DNA of 64,000 nt from a phage, in NCBI GenBank assembly GCA_019234695.1, contig GCA_019234695.1_3937.1, one strand, 5' to 3'. Made by a program: the position numbers and the translations under genes. Positions 23,982 to 30,774 of the stretch are shown piece by piece (position 1 is the first letter of the stretch; each line of letters opens with the position of its first letter). The notes below the pieces were generated by a model. That model made no database searches and had not been told where the DNA came from. It saw nothing but the letters and a program-made list of their open reading frames with translations.

Positions 23982-25397
23982 ATGAGCGAATTATTTAAAC
24001 ATGCGAACCTTCATGCAGGTCGAACTGAAAATGGTGCTGTAAACCATACTTCATCAATGTCTGCTCTTGTAGACTTTTACAAAGCTGCTGGTTCAAGCCG
24101 TAGCAACGTAGAAATCTTACCAGACCTGTTCTACAAAGCTTTGCGTGAGGATGTTGATGTTGCAGTTCGTATTTTGCTTCATATGCGAGATGTACGAGAA
24201 GGTATGGGTGAGCGTAAAGCCTTCAGAACTGTTTTGCTTCAAGCAATTGAAGATAAAGTTTTAGAGCCTACACAGGTTCTTCGCATTATGGATAAGATTG
24301 CAGAACTTGGTCGTTTTGATGACTTCAAAATCTTCGTGGGTACTTGTTTCGAGACAGATGCCTTCAAACATTTAGAAGCAGCATTACTAGACCCTGCAAC
24401 AGCAGGTTTGGCGGCTAAGTGGTTACCACGAGTCAAACCACGTCATAAGCAGTTTGTAAAACGTTTCTGCAAGTTTGCCAACTTGAGTGAGAAAGAGTAC
24501 CGCACACTGTTGTCTGCACTATCTGATACAGTTGAGCAAAAAATCTCTGCTAATGAGTTTGGTAAGATTGACTACAGTAAGATTCCTTCACTTGCTGCTG
24601 CACGTTACCAAAAACTGTTTAACCGTAAAGATGGAGAGCGTTACAAAGCTTACATCGAGTCCTTATCAAAAGGTGAGACTAAGATTAGCGCTGGTGCTGT
24701 TTACCCATACGATGTGATTAAATCCGTCAAGCATGGTAATGCAGATGTTGCTAATGAGCAGTGGAAAGCACTACCAAACTGGATGGCAGAAGGTGAAAAC
24801 ATCTTGTGTATGTCTGATGTATCAAGTTCAATGTCTTGGGTGAATTTTGGCTCCATTACTGCTCTGGATATTGGTGTATCACTTGCCTTGTATGTAGCAG
24901 AACGCAATACAGGTTGCTTTAAGAATGAGTTGATGGTTTATTCAACAAACCCTCACTTCATCGAACTGAGTGGTGATTTACGAAACCGTCATCGTCAGGT
25001 GATGCGACACGTTGAATATGGCTCAACTAACTTACAAGCAGCTTTTGACCGCATTCTTGAGACAGGCAAAAGAAACAACTTGACTCAGAAAGATATGCCA
25101 AGTAAGCTTATCATCTTCTCCGATATGGAGTTTAATCAGGTTGATGGGGCTAACGGTCGTACAAACTTTGAAGCAATTCAGAGTAAGTACAAAAAAGCTG
25201 GATATGAGATGCCACAACTGGTATTCTGGTACTTAGCAAACCGTAATGGTACTTGCGAAGTATCTGTTAAGGATAACGGTGTAGCAATGGTATCAGGGTT
25301 CTCTCCAGCCACTTTAAAAGCTCTGCTTGGTGGTGAGAAGTTTGACCCAATCAGTGTAATGCTCAAAGCAGTAATGATTGACCGTTATATCTGGTAA
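23982..25397 (+). CDS. Ro60-like protein (helical N-terminal domain plus vWA/MIDAS domain)
   Basis: 471 aa; SDVSSSM (DxSxS MIDAS), LIIFSDMEFN and GFSPATLKAL align by eye with human Ro60 vWA segments DVSASM, FIVFTDNETF, GFDTGAL (recalled). Confidence 0.5.
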   Translation: MSELFKHANLHAGRTENGAVNHTSSMSALVDFYKAAGSSRSNVEILPDLFYKALREDVDVAVRILLHMRDVREGMGERKAFRTVLLQAIEDKVLEPTQVLRIMDKIAELGRFDDFKIFVGTCFETDAFKHLEAALLDPATAGLAAKWLPRVKPRHKQFVKRFCKFANLSEKEYRTLLSALSDTVEQKISANEFGKIDYSKIPSLAAARYQKLFNRKDGERYKAYIESLSKGETKISAGAVYPYDVIKSVKHGNADVANEQWKALPNWMAEGENILCMSDVSSSMSWVNFGSITALDIGVSLALYVAERNTGCFKNELMVYSTNPHFIELSGDLRNRHRQVMRHVEYGSTNLQAAFDRILETGKRNNLTQKDMPSKLIIFSDMEFNQVDGANGRTNFEAIQSKYKKAGYEMPQLVFWYLANRNGTCEVSVKDNGVAMVSGFSPATLKALLGGEKFDPISVMLKAVMIDRYIW

Positions 25398-25560: not shown

Positions 25561-25637
25561 ATCTCTGTTTAGCTCAGCTTGGTAGAGCGTTCCGTTTGGG
25601 GCGGTAAGGCCGGAGGTTCAAGTCCTCCAACAGAGAC
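25561..25637 (+). tRNA. tRNA-Pro (anticodon TGG)
   Basis: manual cloverleaf; acceptor CTCTGTT/AACAGAG, T-arm GGAGG-TTCAAGT-CCTCC, CCA encoded. Confidence 0.65.
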
Positions 25638-25644
25638 CAAATTA

Positions 25645-25722
25645 ATGTTCCAGTGGACAAAATGGTAAAGTCACCACTCTTTCAAAGTGGATATTTGAGG
25701 GTTCAAATCCCTTCTGGAACGC
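25645..25722 (+). tRNA. tRNA-Glu (TTC)
   Basis: manual fold; anticodon arm CCACT-CTTTCAA-AGTGG; T-loop TTCAAAT. Confidence 0.7.
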
Positions 25723-25728
25723 CAGTTT

Positions 25729-25802
25729 TGACAGAAGACCAATTACAGCAAACTTAATCTTATTCATCTGAAGGTAAATCGGACAAAGAAGAGATTTGGT
25801 CT
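25729..25802 (+). ncRNA. structured hairpin RNA E1 (Y RNA-like family)
   Basis: 5-prime ACAGAAGACCAATTACAGCAA pairs with 3-prime TTGGTCTGG; between tRNA-Glu and tRNA-Met. Confidence 0.45.
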
Positions 25803-25813
25803 GGTCATTAAGA

Positions 25814-25890
25814 ATTGCGGGTATAGAGAAAGGGCGTCTCACATGTCTCATTAGCATGGTATCGGCAGGTTCGACTCCTGCACCCGCCTC
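25814..25890 (+). tRNA. tRNA-Met (CAT), atypical
   Basis: anticodon arm CATGT-CTCATTA-GCATG; 1-72 mismatch and 3-nt connector before D-stem. Confidence 0.5.
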
Positions 25891-25895
25891 CAAAT

Positions 25896-25960
25896 TTACA
25901 GAAGACCGTTTACAGCAATATTTATTAAATTTTTAGCGGAAAAATTGAAAGATACGGTCT
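25896..25960 (+). ncRNA. structured hairpin RNA E2 (Y RNA-like family)
   Basis: 5-prime ACAGAAGACCGTTTACAGCAA pairs with 3-prime ACGGTCTGG; compensatory change relative to E1/E3. Confidence 0.45.
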
Positions 25961-25973
25961 GGTAATACTAAAC

Positions 25974-26050
25974 ATGGTTAGGAAGCACATAAGGTATGTG
26001 CGGTCGCCTGTTAAGCGAATGGCACAGGGTTCGAATCCCTGACTAACCGC
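25974..26050 (+). tRNA. tRNA-Asn (GTT)
   Basis: anticodon loop CTGTTAA; D-stem GCAC/GTGC; T-arm CAGGG-TTCGAAT-CCCTG. Confidence 0.7.
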
Positions 26051-26119
26051 CAAATTTAGGAGAGAAGCGATTGCTCACCGATTTGTAAGGTTCAAGTCCT
26101 TAGCCTGAATAGAAATCAA

Positions 26120-26207
26120 ATGTGTCGTTATCCCGTAGATGGTAGCGGTGGGGACTGTAAATCCCTTGTCATTGAGACTCGGTAGGTTCGACTCCTACAC
26201 GGCACAC
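26120..26207 (+). tRNA. tRNA-Tyr (GTA), long variable arm
   Basis: 88 nt; anticodon loop CTGTAAA; T-arm GTAGG-TTCGACT-CCTAC. Confidence 0.7.
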
Positions 26208-26213
26208 CAAATA

Positions 26214-26291
26214 AAGGTTATGTAGTTTAATCTGGTTAAAATACTCCCCTGTCACGGGAGATGATGAGGGTTCAAATCCCTTCATAACCGC
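26214..26291 (+). tRNA. tRNA-Asp (GTC)
   Basis: perfect acceptor GGTTATG/CATAACC; anticodon arm CTCCC-CTGTCAC-GGGAG. Confidence 0.8.
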
Positions 26292-26352
26292 CAATTTTGA
26301 GAGGGCTATTTAGCCCCTCCCTTAAAGAGTTCTTACGAGTATTCTTTAAAGG

Positions 26353-26426
26353 AGCAGAAGACCAAATACAGCAAGCATGTATGAAATTTCAAACCAATTC
26401 AATTTTGAAAATTTAAAACTTGGTCT
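26353..26426 (+). ncRNA. structured hairpin RNA E3 (Y RNA-like family)
   Basis: 5-prime CAGAAGACCAAATACAGCAA pairs with 3-prime TTGGTCTGG. Confidence 0.45.
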
Positions 26427-26438
26427 GGCTCAACAAAT

Positions 26439-26571
26439 TTACAGAAGACCGTTTACAGCAAAACTTAAACAATCTATTTCTCCGGTAAAGAAAAGGCGAG
26501 GGTTCGATTCCTTCACTCGGCAGATGTCGAGTTGGTGTAATGGTAGCACTTAAGATGATAAACAACGGTCT
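26439..26571 (+). ncRNA. candidate Y RNA (YrlA-like) with permuted tRNA-like module
   Basis: terminal stem AGACCGTT / AACGGTCT; internal order T-arm (GAGGG-TTCGATT-CCTTC), ACTCGGC, 4-nt loop, GTCGAGT, D-arm (GTGTAATGGTAGCAC). Confidence 0.5.
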
Positions 26572-26573
26572 GG

Positions 26574-26716
26574 TAATTATCTTTGTAGATAAGTTATTAA
26601 GCTTACCTGTGAGTATGCGACCACAAAGGGTGAATGGGTAAATTCTAGATTTAAACCCAAAAAGGCACATCGCTACAGACCTTAAGCAAGTCTGGGTAGC
26701 TTATCTACAAAGATAA
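26574..26716 (+). ncRNA. long hairpin element with 18-bp terminal inverted repeat
   Basis: ATTATCTTTGTAGATAAG (26574-26591) is the exact reverse complement of CTTATCTACAAAGATAAT (26699-26716); ~107 nt interior with sub-hairpins. Confidence 0.4.
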
Positions 26717-26720
26717 TTTA

Positions 26721-26796
26721 ATGGAAGTGTAGCAGAATGGTGATGCGGCAGACTTTTAATCTGACAGGCGATGGGTTCGAATCCCTCCACTTCTAC
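26721..26796 (+). tRNA. tRNA-Lys (TTT), weak T-stem
   Basis: anticodon loop CTTTTAA; acceptor GGAAGTG/CACTTCT; T-stem has two mismatches. Confidence 0.55.
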
Positions 26797-26800
26797 CAAT

Positions 26801-26877
26801 ATGGTTCAGTCGCAGATAAGGTAATGCAAGGGTCTCATAAGCCCTATGAATGTGGGTTCGATTCCCATCTGAACCTC
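26801..26877 (+). tRNA. tRNA-Met (CAT)
   Basis: perfect acceptor GGTTCAG/CTGAACC; anticodon arm AGGGT-CTCATAA-GCCCT. Confidence 0.7.
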
Positions 26878-26878
26878 C

Positions 26879-26954
26879 AAGCTGGTATAGTTAAGAAGGT
26901 TATAACACTCCCCTGATAAGGGAACATCGGTGGTTCGATTCCACCTACCAGTAC
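26879..26954 (+). tRNA. tRNA-Ile (GAT)
   Basis: anticodon loop CTGATAA; T-arm GGTGG-TTCGATT-CCACC. Confidence 0.75.
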
Positions 26955-26969
26955 CAATTTCAATAAAGT

Positions 26970-26998
26970 TGTTGACATTGAGATGTGACTACTTTATA
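26970..26998 (+). promoter_or_regulatory. internal sigma70-like promoter within tRNA cluster
   Basis: TTGACA-17-TATAGT after tRNA-Ile; precedes ~200 nt tRNA-free structured segment. Confidence 0.55.
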
Positions 26999-27200
26999 GT
27001 AACCTTAGTTTTCGTTGCGTAGCGTCTATTTTGCAAATTTAAAATAAATGCAAACGACAATGTTTTTCTGGCAGTAGCTTGATAGGCTAAACACCAGTGA
27101 GGTCTTCCAATCCCTCATCAAAGAATTTGGCGTACTCGCCCACGGTATGATTAATAAGGTGGGCATCTTTAAGGGCTTTCTAAGAGAGTCTTTAAAGATA

Positions 27201-27277
27201 ATGCACCCTTAGTTCAATTGGATAGAGCAACGGTCTTCTAAATCGTTAGTTACAGGTTCGAATCCTGTAGGGTGTAC
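27201..27277 (+). tRNA. tRNA-Arg (TCT)
   Basis: anticodon arm ACGGT-CTTCTAA-ATCGT; T-arm ACAGG-TTCGAAT-CCTGT. Confidence 0.8.
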
Positions 27278-27419
27278 CAAATAGTTAGCAGATTACTTAG
27301 ACGGCCTTAGCGGGTCTTCCTGTAGGGAGGTGGTCTGTATCTCATGTTTTCCAGAACATGTAAATAATCTGAGAAGGAGCTTGACAGTGTTGAGATAACA
27401 GGGTAAGCTTCGAATTATA

Positions 27420-27502
27420 ATATGGGACGATGTTAAGACTCTAAGGCATGAGCAACGGCCTCCAAAACCGTTTCAAAGGGGTTCAACTCCTCCGTCCCAT
27501 GC
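27420..27502 (+). tRNA. tRNA-Trp (CCA)-like, atypical
   Basis: perfect acceptor ATGGGAC/GTCCCAT; anticodon loop CTCCAAA; ~7 extra nt between acceptor and D-arm. Confidence 0.45.
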
Positions 27503-27515
27503 CAAAGTCTTATTA

Positions 27516-27603
27516 GGGGTAGGTAGCGGCTAATGGTAGCCAAACTGTCTTGAAAACAGTTGCCACTGTAGAGATACGGTGAGGGTTCGACTCCTTTACT
27601 TAC
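27516..27603 (+). tRNA. tRNA-Ser (TGA), long variable arm
   Basis: anticodon arm ACTGT-CTTGAAA-ACAGT; 20-nt variable arm; CCA not encoded. Confidence 0.75.
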
Positions 27604-27757
27604 CGCCTAATAAGATTTACTCCGTCCATGCTTGTTCGCATTGTCGGTTTATCCCTCGTGTATTGTCGTACACTGTCAAAGCACCTAGTAGGTGTCACGG
27701 AGAAGAGATAATATCAAGCTCTCCAAAGGTTCTAGTCACCGGATTAAACAAGACTAT

Positions 27758-27780
27758 GCAAAGACCTATTTAGGTCTTTT
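27758..27780 (+). terminator. terminator-like hairpin inside tRNA cluster
   Basis: AGACCTA-TT-TAGGTCT followed by TTTTT. Confidence 0.45.
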
Positions 27781-27859
27781 TAGAGGGCTTCTAAGGTTAT
27801 TAGTCGCTTGTTGTGGAACCTTGTTGCTTAGGTTCTTAGAAGTTCTCTAAAAAGATTTA

Positions 27860-27937
27860 ATGGGAGATTGACGGTAATTGGTAAACCTACCATCCTTAGA
27901 AGTTGGTGTTTGAGGGTTCGAATCCCTTGTCTCCTAC
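27860..27937 (+). tRNA. tRNA with anticodon TAG (Leu by anticodon), short variable arm
   Basis: acceptor GGGAGAT/GTCTCCT; anticodon loop CTTAGAA; discriminator A; 5-nt variable region. Confidence 0.5.
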
Positions 27938-27944
27938 CAAATTA

Positions 27945-28020
27945 ATGCAGGTGTAGCAAAATGGTTATGCGGCTGACTCTTAATCAGTAAGACGATGGGT
28001 TCAATTCCCTCCACCTGTAC
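27945..28020 (+). tRNA. tRNA-Lys (CTT), weak T-stem
   Basis: paralog of 26721..26796; anticodon arm GCTGA-CTCTTAA-TCAGT. Confidence 0.55.
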
Positions 28021-28026
28021 CAAACA

Positions 28027-28102
28027 TTGGGGATGTAGTTTACATGGTTAAAACATAAGTTTTGCAAACTTAAGTACAGGGTTCAATTCCCTGCTTCTCC
28101 AC
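28027..28102 (+). tRNA. tRNA-Ala (TGC)
   Basis: anticodon arm TAAGT-TTTGCAA-ACTTA; T-arm CAGGG-TTCAATT-CCCTG. Confidence 0.7.
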
Positions 28103-28108
28103 CAATTA

Positions 28109-28183
28109 GTGCATCCATAGTTTAAACGGGAAAATTACAGTCTTCCAAACTGAGGTTGAGGGTTCGATTCCCTCTGGATGCTC
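28109..28183 (+). tRNA. tRNA-Gly (TCC)
   Basis: perfect acceptor GCATCCA/TGGATGC; anticodon loop CTTCCAA; 75 nt. Confidence 0.7.
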
Positions 28184-28189
28184 CAAACA

Positions 28190-28266
28190 ATGCTGCTTTC
28201 GTATAATTGGCTATTACACATCCCTTGTAAGGATGGAAATGCAGGTTCGAGTCCTGTGAGCAGCAC
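28190..28266 (+). tRNA. tRNA-Thr (TGT)
   Basis: anticodon arm CATCC-CTTGTAA-GGATG; T-arm GCAGG-TTCGAGT-CCTGT. Confidence 0.8.
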
Positions 28267-28269
28267 CAA

Positions 28270-28357
28270 TTCAGAGGTCAAGTGAAAGACCGCTTTGAGT
28301 CAACTGAAGACCGTAACAAATACCACGGAGTTGAGTTAGCGGCACAACTTCAGACCT
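28270..28357 (+). ncRNA. structured hairpin RNA E5 (divergent member)
   Basis: outer stem CAGAGGTC / GACCTCTG; internal CTGAAGACCGTAACAAA resembles the E-family 5-prime motif. Confidence 0.35.
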
Positions 28358-28362
28358 CTTTC

Positions 28363-28437
28363 ATACTCGCTTAGTTTATATGGTAAAACATCACCCTTAC
28401 AAGATGAAGAAAAAGGTTCAAGTCCTTTAGTGAGTAC
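28363..28437 (+). tRNA. tRNA-Val (TAC)
   Basis: anticodon loop CTTACAA; T-arm AAAGG-TTCAAGT-CCTTT. Confidence 0.7.
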
Positions 28438-28438
28438 C

Positions 28439-28516
28439 ATGTTCCAGTATCCCAATTGGCAGAGGATGCAAGCTCAAACCTTGTATTAGTGACGGTTCGA
28501 ATCCGTCTTGGAACAC
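28439..28516 (+). tRNA. tRNA with anticodon CAA (Leu by anticodon), short variable arm
   Basis: acceptor GTTCCAG/TTGGAAC; anticodon arm GCAAG-CTCAAAC-CTTGT; discriminator A. Confidence 0.5.
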
Positions 28517-28521
28517 CAATT

Positions 28522-28597
28522 TTGCAGGATTAGTTCAAATGGAAAGAGCAACAGTCTACGAAGCTGTTAATAGGGGTTCGAATCCCTTATCCTGCGC
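28522..28597 (+). tRNA. tRNA-Arg (ACG)
   Basis: perfect acceptor GCAGGAT/ATCCTGC; anticodon loop CTACGAA. Confidence 0.8.
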
Positions 28598-28616
28598 CAG
28601 ATAAAAAGGTGATACT

Positions 28617-28859
28617 ATGCAAACATTAACAGTAGTTGAACATGAAAACTGTGAGAGTATTGAGTTTGTCAGGGTCATTGGTGTTGAACACCACATTTTC
28701 TTAAAAGTGGGATACTTATGCGACCCCGCTAGAGTAGAAAGATTTATACGTGATTGTTTTGGTGGTAGACATCTGAAGAGTGTTATTTTTGAGACAGTTT
28801 TACCAGAAGGTTTAGAAACGAATAATAACATTTACCTCCTTACGAGGATTAGACAATGA
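28617..28859 (+). CDS. hypothetical small protein embedded in tRNA cluster
   Basis: ORF track; AAAGGTG RBS-like upstream. Confidence 0.4.
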   Translation: MQTLTVVEHENCESIEFVRVIGVEHHIFLKVGYLCDPARVERFIRDCFGGRHLKSVIFETVLPEGLETNNNIYLLTRIRQ

Positions 28860-29413
28860 GATACTTAAAGTATGCTTCATGGATTTTCTTAGCTTTGTTA
28901 GAGCCATTTGCAGCAATCTTAGCAGTTATCTTAGCACCTTTTGTAGTTCCATTCTACAGTGAGAAGAAAGGACACTTACCTTTCGGGTTCAGATGGATGG
29001 AGACATATGACAACCCAATTGATGGTGATGAAGGTCACGTTAAAAGATGGGCTAATATTAGATGGATTGGTAAACTAGGTGTCTACATGCAAAGAGTCGG
29101 ATGGCTCTGGAGAAACAAAGCTTATAACTTCTCTTACCATGTATTAGGAAGAGATGTAAGAGATGTTACTAAGTGGAAAGGTAATATCAACGTAAGTTCT
29201 AACCCTGAAGATAATCAGACTGGTTATCTCCTAATGTGGAACAGTAATGCTTGGGGATTATTCGCTTTTATCCCATCAATTAAAGTCTTCGGTAAACAGT
29301 TTTACTGGAGAATTTATGTTGGATGGAAACTTAAAAGTGTTGTCCCAGAAGAAAGAGCATTCTCAAGGGAAAGAGTTATGTTGGCATTCTTTATTCATCC
29401 ACTGAGAAAGTAA
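28856..29413 (+). CDS. hypothetical membrane protein embedded in tRNA cluster
   Basis: ORF track; hydrophobic N-terminus; 4-nt start/stop overlap with upstream ORF. Confidence 0.5.
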   Translation: MRYLKYASWIFLALLEPFAAILAVILAPFVVPFYSEKKGHLPFGFRWMETYDNPIDGDEGHVKRWANIRWIGKLGVYMQRVGWLWRNKAYNFSYHVLGRDVRDVTKWKGNINVSSNPEDNQTGYLLMWNSNAWGLFAFIPSIKVFGKQFYWRIYVGWKLKSVVPEERAFSRERVMLAFFIHPLRK

Positions 29414-29420
29414 AGATTTA

Positions 29421-29496
29421 AAGGGGATTAGTTTACAAGGTTAAAACCTCGGTCTTTGAAATCGAAGAAGTTGGTTCAATTCCAACATCCCCCGCC
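29421..29496 (+). tRNA. tRNA-Gln (TTG)
   Basis: anticodon arm TCGGT-CTTTGAA-ATCGA; T-arm GTTGG-TTCAATT-CCAAC; weak 1-72 pair. Confidence 0.65.
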
Positions 29497-29498
29497 AA

Positions 29499-29577
29499 TG
29501 CTCCATTACTCCAATTGGCAGAGAGGCCAGACTTAAAATCTGTGTTATGTATCGGTTCGAATCCGATATGGAGTACC
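29499..29577 (+). tRNA. tRNA with anticodon TAA (Leu by anticodon), short variable arm
   Basis: acceptor GCTCCAT/ATGGAGT; anticodon loop CTTAAAA; 7-nt variable region; discriminator A. Confidence 0.5.
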
Positions 29578-29582
29578 AAATT

Positions 29583-29658
29583 TAGCGGTATAGCATAACT
29601 GGCAATGCAGCAGTCTCTGAAGCTGTCCTATTAAGGTTCAAATCCTTATGCCGCTGCC
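29583..29658 (+). tRNA. tRNA-Gln (CTG)
   Basis: D-stem GCAT/ATGC; anticodon loop CTCTGAA; T-arm TAAGG-TTCAAAT-CCTTA. Confidence 0.6.
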
Positions 29659-29689
29659 ACTTCTAAGGATTCTTACGAGAGTCCTTAAA

Positions 29690-29765
29690 TGTGGCCTTAT
29701 CATAAATGGTAATGCCCCATGCTGTGAACATGGTCTATACGGGTTCAAATCCCGTAGGTCACCCC
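29690..29765 (+). tRNA. tRNA-His (GTG)
   Basis: perfect anticodon arm CCATG-CTGTGAA-CATGG; T-arm ACGGG-TTCAAAT-CCCGT. Confidence 0.75.
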
Positions 29766-29771
29766 AATTTA

Positions 29772-29847
29772 TAGTCCAAGTAGCTTATATGGTTAAAGCG
29801 CGTGTCTGAAAAACATGAGAAGAGGGTTCAAATCCCACTGGACTACC
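29772..29847 (+). tRNA. tRNA-Phe (GAA)
   Basis: anticodon loop CTGAAAA; D-stem GCTT/AAGC; acceptor register ambiguous by 1 nt. Confidence 0.65.
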
Positions 29848-29864
29848 AATTTCAAAGGTGCTTA

Positions 29865-30599
29865 ATGAAAGAGATGACAGAACAAGGTAAGGAGATTTTC
29901 AATCTCTTAAAAACCGGTAAAGGGTTTTCTAACCCCCTTATTACTGGTGCAGCAGTTCTCGGTGGAACCGTAGCTGCCTCTACATCACTTGTAAGCTCTA
30001 TTAGCTCTGTATCAGACCCTACAGTAAAGGATAAGCTTGTTGCTGCTGGACTTACAACAGTTCTGCTTAACAGCTTTACCACGAGTCTGACAAGCACTAC
30101 ATCAACTACCAAAACACTAACAGATTACGGTCAAAAGTCCATTGATGAGTTTTCATCACGTATGCAGGTAGCAAAAGGTTACTCTAATGTTATGGGTGCA
30201 GCAGGTGAACAAGTTGGCTGTACACCATTTAGTGGTATTATGGGTGTTGCTACAGAGTATGGTCAAAAAACTATTGATACGATTAACAGTGCACTAGATA
30301 GTGTTAATGGTGTGTTAAGTGACTTACAAGATGCTATTGACAAAGGTCTTGATACTATTTCTGATTTAGCTGAGCAAGCTGTTAGTAAGATTAATGAAGG
30401 TATTTCAAAAATTACAGCTTATGCAGATGAAGTTGTGCAGATGATTGAAGAAGAAGCTGCTCTTATTGCAGAGTACCTTAAAACGAATATCAATGGGTTC
30501 TTAGCAGGTATCTTACCAGACTGGTTTGATGATGCTTGTAAAACTGGTGTAATTGACACTATTGCAACACCAGAAATGAAGAACGCATTACAGAAATAA
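29865..30599 (+). CDS. hypothetical Ser/Thr/Ala-rich protein embedded in tRNA cluster
   Basis: ORF 29802..30599 trimmed to internal ATG at 29865 because upstream part overlaps tRNA-Phe. Confidence 0.5.
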   Translation: MKEMTEQGKEIFNLLKTGKGFSNPLITGAAVLGGTVAASTSLVSSISSVSDPTVKDKLVAAGLTTVLLNSFTTSLTSTTSTTKTLTDYGQKSIDEFSSRMQVAKGYSNVMGAAGEQVGCTPFSGIMGVATEYGQKTIDTINSALDSVNGVLSDLQDAIDKGLDTISDLAEQAVSKINEGISKITAYADEVVQMIEEEAALIAEYLKTNINGFLAGILPDWFDDACKTGVIDTIATPEMKNALQK

Positions 30600-30601
30600 A
30601 T

Positions 30602-30694
30602 GGAAGATTAACCCTAAAAGGTAAGGGAGCAGTTTGCTAAACTGCCAGTAGCTGAGAAATCGGTGTACCAGTTCAAGTCTGGTATCTTCCTCCA
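30602..30694 (+). tRNA. tRNA-Ser (GCT), long variable arm
   Basis: 93 nt; perfect acceptor GGAAGAT/ATCTTCC; perfect anticodon arm GCAGT-TTGCTAA-ACTGC. Confidence 0.8.
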
Positions 30695-30698
30695 ATTT

Positions 30699-30774
30699 GA
30701 ATCCGTGACAGAAACGGCTATGTGCCTGTCTGCAAAACAGGTTTATAAGGGTTCGAGTCCCTTCGGATTCTCCA
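30699..30774 (+). tRNA. tRNA-Cys (GCA)
   Basis: perfect acceptor GAATCCG/CGGATTC; perfect anticodon arm CCTGT-CTGCAAA-ACAGG. Confidence 0.8.

What the first reader, a model, noticed from the sequence alone, without database searches (positions are those of the whole stretch)
27860..29577. Three Leu-anticodon tRNAs appear to have short (class I-like) variable arms
The tRNAs with anticodons TAG (27860-27937), CAA (28439-28516) and TAA (29499-29577) fold with 5-7 nt variable regions and total lengths of 78-79 nt, whereas bacterial tRNA-Leu is normally class II with a long variable arm, like the Ser and Tyr genes here (88-93 nt). All three keep discriminator A73, the major LeuRS identity element. 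Either these are unusual Leu isoacceptors supplying UUA/UUG/CUA codons, or their identity differs from what the anticodon suggests.
Basis: partly seen in the sequence, partly recalled or inferred. Interest (0 to 1): 0.5.

Follow-up and report, generated by a model that had tools for sequence, protein, structure and literature searches.

The report
Arm-less leucine tRNAs in a coliphage
A Felix O1-like phage of E. coli/Salmonella carries three leucine tRNA genes that lack the long extra arm bacterial leucine tRNAs normally have; they look fully functional, and such arm-less leucine tRNAs prove common in phages although hardly described.

Summary
The genes are tRNA-Leu(UAG) 27862-27939, (CAA) 28441-28518 and (UAA) 29500-29578. 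They are 78-79 nt long, have unstructured 5-7-nt variable regions and end in A73-CCA. Tyr and Ser in the same 26-tRNA cluster keep long arms. The window is a Felixounavirus.

All three keep the E. coli LeuRS identity set: A73, U8/A14, A15:U48, G18G19, A20a and the T-loop. That set does not include the long arm. The genes are conserved in over 250 phage genomes and show compensatory stem changes. They match codons the phage over-uses. Published tRNAscan isotype models score the orthologues as Leu. The closest reference genome (wV8) has no annotated synthetase.

Best reading: genuine "type I" tRNA-Leu charged by host LeuRS (inferred, untested). One caveat: E. coli LeuRS reportedly failed on the Streptomyces type I tRNA-Leu.

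The trait is widespread. Roughly 10% of matching viral tRNA-Leu are short, and they also occur in T5-like phages and Actinomycetota chromosomes. The loss is Leu-specific, and most short forms have a remodelled core (A9, C12:G23, C13).

This is a new member of a known kind, of moderate interest.

The parts
27862..27939 (+). tRNA-Leu(UAG), 78 nt, 5-nt variable region (UGUUU), G1.U72, A73, encoded CCA. It has an irregular D arm of 18 nt, with an extra nucleotide at the acceptor/D junction. It also has a U30.U40 mismatch, and A37 instead of G37.
   Evidence: ARAGORN; Rfam 40.0 bits with a one-nucleotide acceptor shift; lineage covariation; homologue in T5-like phages; 25 of 26 cluster tRNAs encode CCA after the discriminator, which supports the ARAGORN register.
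28441..28518 (+). tRNA-Leu(CAA), 78 nt, 6-nt variable region (AUUAGU), A9, 3-bp D stem UCC/GGA, D loop CAAUUGGCAGA, U48, A73, encoded CCA.
   Evidence: ARAGORN; Rfam 44.0 bits; segmentation against E. coli leuX; 249 of 292 matching phage records are at least 95% identical, 160 of them at least 99%.
29500..29578 (+). tRNA-Leu(UAA), 79 nt, 7-nt variable region (GUUAUGU), G1.U72 and C2-G71 as in E. coli leuZ, A9, D arm CUC-CAAUUGGCAGA-GAG, anticodon loop CUUAAAA (A36A37A38), A73, encoded CCA.
   Evidence: ARAGORN; Rfam 47.5 bits; segmentation; 216 phage records at least 99% identical.
25563..30774 (+). The 26-gene tRNA cluster that holds the three Leu genes, all on the + strand, interspersed with small ORFs.
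   Evidence: ARAGORN; Rfam; 94-97% identical to Felixounavirus genomes over 5.3 kb.
26122..26209 (+). tRNA-Tyr(GUA), 88 nt, with a variable stem-loop. Internal control showing class II arms are kept where the synthetase needs them.
   Evidence: ARAGORN.
27518..27607 (+). tRNA-Ser(UGA), 90 nt, long variable arm (internal control).
   Evidence: ARAGORN; Rfam.
30602..30694 (+). tRNA-Ser(GCU), 93 nt, long variable arm (internal control).
   Evidence: ARAGORN; Rfam.

Best explanation
The three genes are genuine phage-encoded leucine tRNAs of the 'type I' architecture, meaning a short unstructured variable region in place of the class II stem-loop. After infection they are transcribed with the rest of the 26-tRNA cluster and processed; the CCA end is already encoded. 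The host leucyl-tRNA synthetase then charges them with leucine. E. coli LeuRS recognises A73 plus the shape of the tRNA elbow and core (U8:A14, the A15:U48 Levitt pair, the register of G18G19, A20a, and the D-loop/T-loop pairs). It does not read the anticodon and does not require the long arm, so a tRNA-Leu can lose the arm and keep its identity. SerRS and bacterial TyrRS do use the arm, which explains why Ser and Tyr tRNAs in the same cluster keep it. The charged tRNAs read UUA/UUG, UUG and CUA (plus wobble), codons this 39% G+C phage uses far more than its host does. Shown here: the structure, the identity nucleotides, conservation and covariation, the codon match, the absence of an annotated phage synthetase in the closest reference genome, and the Leu-specific, widespread nature of arm loss. 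Inferred: expression, actual leucylation by the host enzyme and its efficiency, and decoding.
For: Structure. Identity set: all three have U8, A14, A15, G18G19, A20a, U48, U54-U55-C56, A58 and A73. CAA and UAA have exactly the 3-bp stem and 11-nt loop D arm of E. coli leuX/leuZ/leuW. The review PMC9976931 states that A73, A15:U48, G18G19 and A20a define E. coli leucine identity, that the anticodon and long arm do not, and that tRNA-Leu variants lacking the arm stay active. Isotype models: Leu scores highest for all three Sf14 orthologues (67.4, 49.1, 60.2). Selection: 95-100% identity in about 250-350 genomes. The TAG lineage is 94.9% paired against 47-59% for slid controls, with 6 pairs changed on both sides and 0 of 500 shuffles reaching the covariation score. 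In 109 distinct viral short Leu tRNAs 98.3% of helix cells are canonical against 40% for the control, and U48 is present in 92 of 92. Codons: UUA 28.6%, CUA 11.7%, CUU 25.8% and CUG 13.8% of Leu codons, against textbook E. coli values of about 13, 4, 10 and 50%. No aminoacyl-tRNA synthetase is annotated anywhere in the close relative wV8. Arm loss is Leu-specific: 177 of 370 Leu are at most 80 nt, against 3 of 134 Ser and 4 of 50 Tyr. Short Leu tRNAs occur in two unrelated coliphage families, Ounavirinae and T5-like Demerecviridae. In thymidylate synthase, 10 of 11 UUA/UUG/CUA positions align with Leu or I/V/M/F in phage T5 (small sample).
Against: No aminoacylation data exist for these tRNAs. 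Fan et al. 2019 report that E. coli LeuRS could not charge the S. coelicolor type I tRNA-Leu(CAA) and describe it as charging only type II; that tRNA has C48 rather than U48, which may explain the failure. The C-terminal domain of E. coli LeuRS contacts the variable arm, and U20 is invariant in E. coli tRNA-Leu, whereas phage CAA and UAA have C20. Charging may therefore be less efficient. Single-sequence folding is weak: z-scores are -0.3, -1.8 and -1.6, and the cloverleaves lie 3.4-4.8 kcal/mol above the MFE. The UAG species has an irregular D arm and junction, a U30.U40 mismatch and A37 instead of G37. Some GenBank records label it 'tRNA-OTHER', in Si3 with a pseudogene flag. No related gene occurs in 5,426 E. 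coli genomes or in plasmids, so there is no evidence of long-term coexistence with the host enzyme outside lytic infection.
Confidence: 0.8

Rival explanations
1. The tRNAs are leucine tRNAs as above, but loss of the arm is an adaptation rather than tolerated streamlining. Without the class II arm, the phage tRNA-Leu would not be recognised by host defence toxins or other factors that select class II tRNAs through their long variable arm. Leucine decoding would then continue when host tRNA-Leu is inactivated. This reading adds a 'why' and is compatible with the best explanation.
For: MenT3 uses the long variable loop as an anchor. [quoted passage not shown] Phage tRNAs are already proposed to escape tRNA-targeting defences through sequence changes. 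Arm-less Leu tRNAs recur in unrelated virulent phages and appear to have two separate origins within this one cluster.
Against: No defence system is known to target enterobacterial tRNA-Leu through its arm. MenT3 prefers tRNA-Ser, not tRNA-Leu, and phage tRNA-Ser keeps its arm. Short tRNA-Leu is also a normal chromosomal gene in Actinomycetota, so no phage-specific pressure is needed. T5 itself keeps a type II Leu.
Confidence: 0.15
2. One or more of the genes, most plausibly the UAG species, is non-functional in translation. It could be a decaying gene, or an RNA with another role such as a decoy or processing signal, and the host LeuRS does not charge it.
For: The UAG gene has the lowest Rfam score (40 bits), an irregular D arm and junction, a U.U mismatch, A37, and 'tRNA-OTHER' labels in some records, one flagged as a pseudogene. 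E. coli LeuRS rejected a heterologous type I tRNA-Leu. MFE z-scores are weak.
Against: The UAG lineage shows six pairs with compensatory changes and 94.9% pairing. The U30.U40 mismatch is conserved between Felixounavirus and T5-like homologues with covariation beside it. All identity nucleotides and the encoded CCA are kept. CAA and UAA are near-invariant across more than 250 genomes. Leu is the top isotype score.
Confidence: 0.06
3. The tRNAs carry an amino acid other than leucine, so that UUA/UUG/CUA are partly recoded during infection.
For: Only the unusual architecture. In the Sf14 table the UAG orthologue's Leu score (67.4) is close to its Ile2 (65.7) and Lys (63.4) scores.
Against: The leucine identity nucleotides are complete. 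From established identity rules, the anticodons lack the main determinants of the near-scoring isotypes: U35 for LysRS, LAU/GAU for IleRS, C35/A20 for ArgRS and G34 for PheRS. Host type II tRNA-Leu read the same codons as leucine, so recoding would scramble 53% of the phage's own Leu codons. UUA/UUG/CUA positions align with Leu or other hydrophobic residues in a T5 homologue. Losing the arm moves these tRNAs further from SerRS and TyrRS, not closer.
Confidence: 0.02

Closest known systems
Streptomyces coelicolor type I tRNA-Leu(CAA) (Fan et al. 2019, NAR, PMC6614811)
   Same: A bacterial-type tRNA-Leu with a 5-nt unstructured variable loop that is leucylated by a bacterial LeuRS. Five nucleotides is the minimum functional loop, which matches the 5-7 nt seen here and the 5-nt mode in viral contigs.
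   Different: It is a chromosomal gene that coexists with a LeuRS whose leucine-specific domain is needed for charging the type I tRNA. It has C48, A73 is not an identity element there, and E. coli LeuRS does not charge it. The phage genes have U48 and A73, an E. coli-type D arm, and a host that has only type II tRNA-Leu.
E. coli type II tRNA-Leu (leuX CAA, leuZ UAA, leuW UAG)
   Same: The anticodons are the same, as are A73, U8, A14, A15, G18G19, A20a and U48. The CAA and UAA species share the 17-nt D arm architecture. The UAA species shares G1.U72 and C2-G71 with leuZ.
   Different: The host tRNAs have 13-15-nt variable stem-loops, G9, G12-C23, R13 and U20. The phage CAA and UAA genes have A9, C12-G23, C13 and C20. 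Between 31 and 38 of 66 core positions differ, so they are not recent copies of host genes.
Engineered minimal E. coli tRNA-Leu lacking the variable arm (Larkin et al. 2002; Asahara et al. 1993 and 1998; Tocchini-Valentini et al. 2000, as summarised in PMC9976931)
   Same: They show that E. coli LeuRS can charge tRNA-Leu without the long arm, provided A73 and the D/T-loop tertiary structure are intact. The natural phage genes keep exactly those elements.
   Different: They are laboratory constructs, and I could not read the primary papers. The phage genes are natural, conserved and have a remodelled core.
Animal mitochondrial tRNA-Leu(UUR/CUN)
   Same: They have a short variable region and leucine identity resting on A73 and A14.
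   Different: They are charged by a dedicated mitochondrial LeuRS, have a relaxed structure, and have reduced D/T-loop interactions. The phage genes keep canonical G18G19 and a UUCGAAU T-loop.
Type I tRNA-Leu(UAG) of T5-like phages (Salmonella phage 5 and, per its GenBank note, BF23; also EC148 and others)
   Same: It is a direct homologue of the window's UAG gene: about 84% identical, with the same anticodon loop, T arm, 5-nt variable region and U30.U40 mismatch.
   Different: Its D arm is a regular 17 nt (AUG-GAAUUGGCAUA-CAU). In T5 itself the same locus holds an 85-nt type II tRNA-Leu(UAG) that works as an amber suppressor once its anticodon is changed.
Short-variable-loop tRNA-Leu(UAG) in mycobacterial tRNA gene arrays (PMC6582537)
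   Same: It is an array-encoded Leu isoacceptor with a short variable loop, sitting beside normal chromosomal long-arm genes.
   Different: It was mentioned in one sentence only, in an actinobacterial host whose own chromosome already carries short tRNA-Leu.

Membership tests
tRNA (Rfam RF00005) | Cloverleaf covariance-model score above the gathering threshold (29 bits) | tested here: met
   40.0, 44.0 and 47.5 bits.
Class II (type II) tRNA | Long variable arm (more than about 10 nt) forming a stem-loop | tested here: not met
   The variable regions are 5, 6 and 7 nt with no stem. Tyr and Ser in the same cluster do meet this feature.
E. coli-type tRNA-Leu (LeuRS identity set) | Discriminator A73 | tested here: met
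   A73 followed by CCA in all three.
E. coli-type tRNA-Leu (LeuRS identity set) | A15:U48 Levitt pair and U8:A14 | tested here: met
   U8, A14 and A15 are present, and the last variable nucleotide is U in all three. Pairing is inferred from sequence.
E. coli-type tRNA-Leu (LeuRS identity set) | G18G19 in the Leu-specific D-loop register, with A20a | tested here: met
   CAA and UAA have CAAUUGGCAGA against the host's RAAUYGGUAGA, with the same length and register. UAG has AAUUGGUAA, but with an extra nucleotide 5' of the D stem.
E. coli-type tRNA-Leu (LeuRS identity set) | T-loop partners for G18:U55, G19:C56 and U54:A58 | tested here: met
   The T loop is UUCGAAU in all three.
E. coli-type tRNA-Leu (LeuRS identity set) | U20 (invariant in E. 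coli tRNA-Leu; modulates activity) | tested here: not met
   C20 in CAA and UAA; U20 only in UAG.
E. coli-type tRNA-Leu (LeuRS identity set) | Leucylation by E. coli LeuRS | not testable with these tools
   This needs an aminoacylation assay. The published negative result for a different type I tRNA-Leu means it cannot be assumed.
Type I tRNA-Leu (Streptomyces and mitochondrial kind) | Leu anticodon with an unstructured variable loop of about 5 nt or slightly more | tested here: met
   Loops of 5-7 nt with anticodons UAG, CAA and UAA. Five nucleotides is the functional minimum.
Type I tRNA-Leu core signature (defined here: A9, C12:G23, C13) | Positions 9, 12:23 and 13 differ from type II (G9, G12:C23, R13) | tested here: met
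   Met by CAA and UAA. Not met by UAG, which has G9 and whose nearest neighbours are mostly type II.
tRNAscan-SE Leu isotype model | Leu is the best-scoring isotype-specific model | tested here: inconclusive
   I did not run this. It is published for the near-identical Sf14 orthologues, where Leu is top for all three but only 1.7 bits ahead of Ile2 for UAG.

The most novel reading that the evidence does not exclude
Arm-less tRNA-Leu may be a distinct structural class spread by phages and tRNA arrays, marked by a remodelled core (A9, C12:G23, C13). Its loss of the class II arm may be selected because it hides the phage's leucine tRNAs from host toxins, or from phage-induced tRNA turnover, that recognise class II tRNAs by their long arm (AbiEii/MenT-like nucleotidyltransferases or nucleases not yet described). 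It remains chargeable because bacterial LeuRS, unlike SerRS and TyrRS, does not need the arm.
Probability: 0.15. Interest if true: 0.75.

Novelty: new member of a known kind. Interest (0 to 1): 0.45.

Why it matters
Textbooks and the synthetase literature treat bacterial tRNA-Leu as class II. Type I tRNA-Leu is treated as a rarity of mitochondria and Streptomyces, and E. coli LeuRS as an enzyme that charges only type II.

These genes are 95-100% conserved in about 250-350 sequenced Felixounavirus genomes. Short homologues of the UAG gene also occur in T5-like and Vequintavirinae phages of E. coli, Salmonella and Cronobacter. All of these must rely on the host enzyme to charge natural type I tRNA-Leu.

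If that is confirmed:
- It would settle a disagreement in the LeuRS literature using natural substrates.
- It would show that the long arm of tRNA-Leu is evolutionarily dispensable wherever the synthetase ignores it.
- It would give compact, orthogonal-looking Leu tRNA scaffolds for engineering.
- It would identify a sizeable class of phage tRNAs (about 10% of matching viral tRNA-Leu) that annotation pipelines sometimes flag as 'tRNA-OTHER' or pseudogenes.

It also opens a testable link to defence systems that select class II tRNAs.

Tried and rejected
1. Single-sequence MFE folding does not recover clean cloverleaves. The z-scores are only -0.3 to -1.8, and the cloverleaves lie 3.4-4.8 kcal/mol above the MFE. 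I treated this as uninformative for A/U-rich tRNAs and relied on covariance models and covariation instead.

2. Rfam's register for the UAG gene shifts the acceptor stem by one and makes U the discriminator. I rejected it in favour of ARAGORN's register, because 25 of 26 cluster tRNAs encode CCA directly after the discriminator.

3. I first read the ASO1B D-arm changes as a compensatory pair supporting the shifted D stem. The pair counts showed C14 opposite A25, so they are not paired. I withdrew the claim, and the D-stem register of the UAG gene remains ambiguous beyond two invariant G-C pairs.

4. I searched E. coli genomes and plasmids for related genes as evidence of long-term compatibility with the host enzyme. 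There were no matches.

5. The codon-to-residue test against T5 homologues found only thymidylate synthase (22 Leu positions). The result is consistent with Leu but underpowered.

6. The primary papers on arm-less E. coli tRNA-Leu (Larkin 2002; Tocchini-Valentini 2000) are not held, so I relied on the review.

7. Ten literature searches found no description of arm-less tRNA-Leu in phages beyond one sentence on mycobacterial arrays. The library is open-access only, so older T5/BF23 work may exist that I could not see.

8. I considered that the genes are host type II genes with a recent deletion. I rejected this because 27-38 of 66 core positions differ from the host genes, and CAA and UAA have a remodelled core.
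Full report
**Observation**

ARAGORN finds 26 tRNA genes on the + strand between 25563 and 30774. Three of them have Leu anticodons:
- UAG at 27862-27939 (78 nt)
- CAA at 28441-28518 (78 nt)
- UAA at 29500-29578 (79 nt)

Otherwise the description is accurate. The drawn cloverleaves and my segmentation give variable regions of 5 nt (UGUUU), 6 nt (AUUAGU) and 7 nt (GUUAUGU). None has a stem, and all three genes have A73 followed by an encoded CCA. In the same cluster Tyr (88 nt) and the two Ser (90 and 93 nt) have long variable regions of class II length; ARAGORN draws a stem-loop for Tyr.

The Rfam tRNA covariance model scores the three genes at 40.0, 44.0 and 47.5 bits against a threshold of 29. 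It places the same anticodons and inserts only 1-3 nt in the variable region.

**Source genome**

The region is 94-97% identical over 5.3 kb to Felixounavirus genomes. These are Felix O1/wV8-like myoviruses of the subfamily Ounavirinae that infect E. coli, Salmonella and Shigella. Most GenBank records already annotate three tRNA-Leu genes. The full annotation of the close relative wV8 contains no aminoacyl-tRNA synthetase. Any charging must therefore be done by the host enzyme.

**Anatomy compared with the host**

I fetched E. coli K-12 leuX (CAA), leuZ (UAA) and leuW (UAG) and segmented all six tRNAs in the same way.

The phage CAA and UAA species have exactly the host's tRNA-Leu D-arm architecture. 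This is a 3-bp stem and an 11-nt loop: CAAUUGGCAGA in the phage against A/GAAUYGGUAGA in the host. All three phage genes have U8, A14, A15, G18G19, A20a, a variable region ending in U (U48), the T-loop UUCGAAU and A73. The UAA species even shares G1.U72 and C2-G71 with leuZ.

The Giegé & Eriani review (PMC9976931) states which elements define leucine identity in E. coli:
- A73, the A15:U48 Levitt pair, G18G19, A20a and the D/T-loop tertiary pairs define it.
- The anticodon and the long variable arm do not.
- tRNA-Leu variants lacking the arm remain active.

Every element the host LeuRS is reported to need is therefore present. The one class II hallmark that is missing is the one the enzyme is reported not to need.

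**Evidence that the genes are functional Leu tRNAs**

1. Conservation.
   - CAA: 249 of 292 matching phage records are at least 95% identical, 160 of them at least 99%.
   - UAA: 216 records are at least 99% identical.
   - UAG: the gene is more variable, with 71 records at 99% or above and many alleles at 80-90%.

2. Covariation in the UAG lineage. I aligned seven alleles and homologues.
   - 94.9% of cells are paired, against 47-59% when partners are slid.
   - Six pairs change on both sides: two in the acceptor stem, three in the anticodon stem and one in the T stem.
   - 0 of 500 shuffles reach the covariation score.
   - The anticodon stem occurs as CCAUC/GUUGG, CCUCG/CGAGG, UCUCG/CGAGA and CCGUC/GUCGG.

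3. Published isotype models. A 2025 paper on the tRNAs of Shigella phage Sf14 analyses a Moogle-like member of the Ounavirinae with the same cluster. It tabulates tRNAscan-SE isotype scores, and Leu is highest for all three orthologues (67.4, 49.1 and 60.2). The word 'variable' never occurs in that paper.

4. Codon usage. In 70 ORFs of the window the Leu codons are UUA 28.6%, UUG 13.2%, CUU 25.8%, CUC 7.0%, CUA 11.7% and CUG 13.8%. Textbook E. coli values are about 13, 13, 10, 10, 4 and 50%. The phage tRNAs match codons it over-uses.

5. Codon-to-residue check. In the one protein shared with my T5 locus (thymidylate synthase), 6 of 11 UUA/UUG/CUA positions align with Leu and 4 with I/V/M/F. 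The sample is small, but it gives no hint of recoding.

**Wider distribution**

I scanned IMG/VR for a Leu-type D loop, an NAR anticodon and a T arm, once with a short spacer and once with a long spacer.
- A combined scan listed about 9 short-type loci among the first 80 rows, so roughly 10% of matching viral tRNA-Leu are short.
- ARAGORN on the 240 loci confirmed the pattern's specificity: 110 of 124 short matches are tRNA-Leu of at most 80 nt.
- It found 166 short Leu tRNAs, 151 of them distinct, in 110 loci whose G+C ranges from 32% to 65%.
- All 166 have A73 and 162 have U48. The variable region is 5 nt in 131 of them.
- Across 109 distinct sequences with the standard D arm, 98.3% of helix cells are canonical, against 40% for a slid control. 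Most positions show 4-6 pair types.

The loss of the arm is specific to Leu. 177 of 370 Leu are at most 80 nt, against 3 of 134 Ser and 4 of 50 Tyr.

Named examples of short Leu tRNAs include:
- Erwinia phage Hena2 (Kolesnikvirus), with three short Leu.
- Enterococcus phage EFGrKN (Herelleviridae), whose Leu has the same D arm as the window's CAA gene.
- Many T5-like phages. In Salmonella phage 5 (and, per its GenBank note, BF23) the Ala-Leu-Ser2-Ser1 locus holds a 77-nt Leu(UAG), where T5 holds an 85-nt type II gene.

Most hits are Actinomycetota, where a single chromosomal tRNA-Leu(UAA) is short and carries the same CAAUUGGCAGA D loop. Others lie in tRNA arrays of 5-29 genes.

**Remodelled core and two origins**

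Comparing 109 short and 151 long viral Leu tRNAs, the positions that differ most are 9, 12:23 and 13.
- Type II tRNAs have G9 (98%), G12:C23 (97%) and R13.
- Most short tRNAs have A9, C12:G23 and C13.
- Actinobacterial short genes show this even more strongly.

From established tRNA structure, these are the positions that form base triples with the variable region in class I tRNAs.

The window's CAA and UAA genes carry the full signature. 24-25 of their 25 nearest non-trivial neighbours are short Leu tRNAs. They differ from the host genes at 31-38 of 66 core positions.

The UAG gene keeps G9, and its nearest neighbours are mostly type II (19 of 25). Its clear homologue is the T5-family short Leu(UAG). 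The two share the same anticodon loop, the same T arm and the same U30.U40 mismatch. One cluster therefore seems to hold arm-less Leu tRNAs of two different origins.

**Mechanism and caveats**

The best-supported reading is that these are genuine type I tRNA-Leu charged by the host LeuRS. The arm could be lost because that enzyme does not use it for identity. Ser and Tyr keep theirs because their synthetases do.

What remains inferred is the charging itself, and there is real counter-evidence.
- Fan et al. 2019 (PMC6614811) found that E. coli LeuRS could not charge the S. coelicolor type I tRNA-Leu(CAA), and they call it an enzyme that only charges type II.
- That tRNA has C48 and so lacks the E. 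coli A15:U48 element, which the phage genes keep. I therefore do not take the result as applying here.
- The C-terminal domain of E. coli LeuRS does contact the arm. U20 is invariant in E. coli tRNA-Leu, whereas phage CAA and UAA have C20. Reduced efficiency is therefore possible.
- The UAG species is the least canonical. It has an 18-nt D arm with an extra nucleotide at the acceptor/D junction, which Rfam absorbs by shifting the acceptor stem. It also has the U30.U40 mismatch and A37 where CUN-reading tRNA-Leu normally has G37. A37 with an NAG anticodon is common in phage Leu tRNAs of both types.

**Why the arm was lost**

The default reading is tolerated streamlining. A more interesting possibility is escape from factors that select class II tRNAs by their arm. 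MenT3 uses the long loop as an anchor. The abortive-infection toxin AbiEii appears to prefer class II tRNAs. Phage tRNAs are already thought to diverge to evade tRNA-targeting defences. No system is known to target enterobacterial tRNA-Leu in this way, so I give this reading about 15%.

**Known or new**

Type I tRNA-Leu is a known kind, described in animal mitochondria and in S. coelicolor. One sentence notes a short-loop tRNA-Leu(UAG) in a mycobacterial tRNA array. The MenT3 paper implies that two M. tuberculosis tRNA-Leu lack long loops.

In the library available to me, 'type I tRNALeu' occurs in a single paper. I found no description of the trait in phages, even in a paper devoted to this very cluster. 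I therefore file the finding as a new member of a known kind.

The wider result is not described in the open-access literature I could search. It covers the prevalence in phages, the specificity to Leu, the core signature, and the presence in two coliphage families whose host enzyme is said to charge only type II. It is directly testable.

Noticed in passing
L366:4001-4079 (Salmonella phage Si3): Si3 carries a chimeric Leu gene: the 5' half comes from the CAA gene and the 3' half, including the anticodon, from the UAA gene. The join is inside their identical D loops. The intervening Arg(ACG), two ORFs and Gln(UUG) are deleted. This shows that the two paralogues recombine.
   Followed up: partly
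window 25816-25892 and 26803-26879: Two CAU-anticodon tRNAs, called Met by ARAGORN, have discriminator U73 rather than A73. In the published Sf14 table their best tRNAscan isotype score is Cys (56.9 and 63.8), not Met (38.4 and 45.2). Their identity (Met, Ile2 or something else) is unclear. The first of the two is also missed by Rfam at its gathering score.
   Followed up: no
window 27891-27907 (anticodon arm of Leu-UAG); L371:1197-1273: The U30.U40 mismatch in the anticodon stem is conserved between the window's allele and its T5-like and Cronobacter-phage homologues. The neighbouring 29:41 pair covaries (A-U against G-C). Other Felixounavirus alleles have a fully paired stem.
   Followed up: partly
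L244:11625-11709 (T5) versus L371:1197-1273 (Salmonella phage 5; BF23 per its GenBank note): The orthologous Ala-Leu-Ser2-Ser1 locus holds an 85-nt type II tRNA-Leu(UAG) in T5 but a 77-nt type I gene in close relatives. The sequences differ too much for this to be a simple deletion, so it looks like a gene replacement.
   Followed up: partly
L245, L250, L252, L254 and many others (genome-contig loci): In Nocardia, Mycobacterium, Gordonia, Rhodococcus, Arthrobacter and relatives, the single chromosomal tRNA-Leu(UAA) is about 74 nt plus CCA, with a 5-nt variable loop. Its D loop, CAAUUGGCAGA, is the same as in the phage genes. Type I tRNA-Leu therefore seems to be a core gene across much of the Actinomycetota, not only in Streptomyces.
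   Followed up: partly
window 23982-25397 (+): A 471-aa protein encoded immediately upstream of the tRNA cluster matches DUF2828 and DUF7788 (E-values 2e-30 and 2e-43). RefSeq annotates it as 'RNA-binding protein'. A role in tRNA handling is possible but was not examined.
   Followed up: partly
window 28856-29413 (+) and 29802-30599 (+): Conserved ORFs of unknown function lie inside the tRNA cluster: DUF7338 (E-value 4e-61) and DUF7217 (E-value 3e-88).
   Followed up: no
window 30602-30694 and 27518-27607: Ser(GCU) has discriminator U rather than the G73 of E. coli tRNA-Ser. Ser(UGA) is the only one of the 26 tRNAs that does not encode CCA.
   Followed up: no
viral loci L004-L243: CUN-reading phage tRNA-Leu often have A37 instead of G37 (25 of 58 short and 19 of 76 long). 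They would therefore lack m1G37, the modification that normally guards the reading frame at these codons.
   Followed up: no
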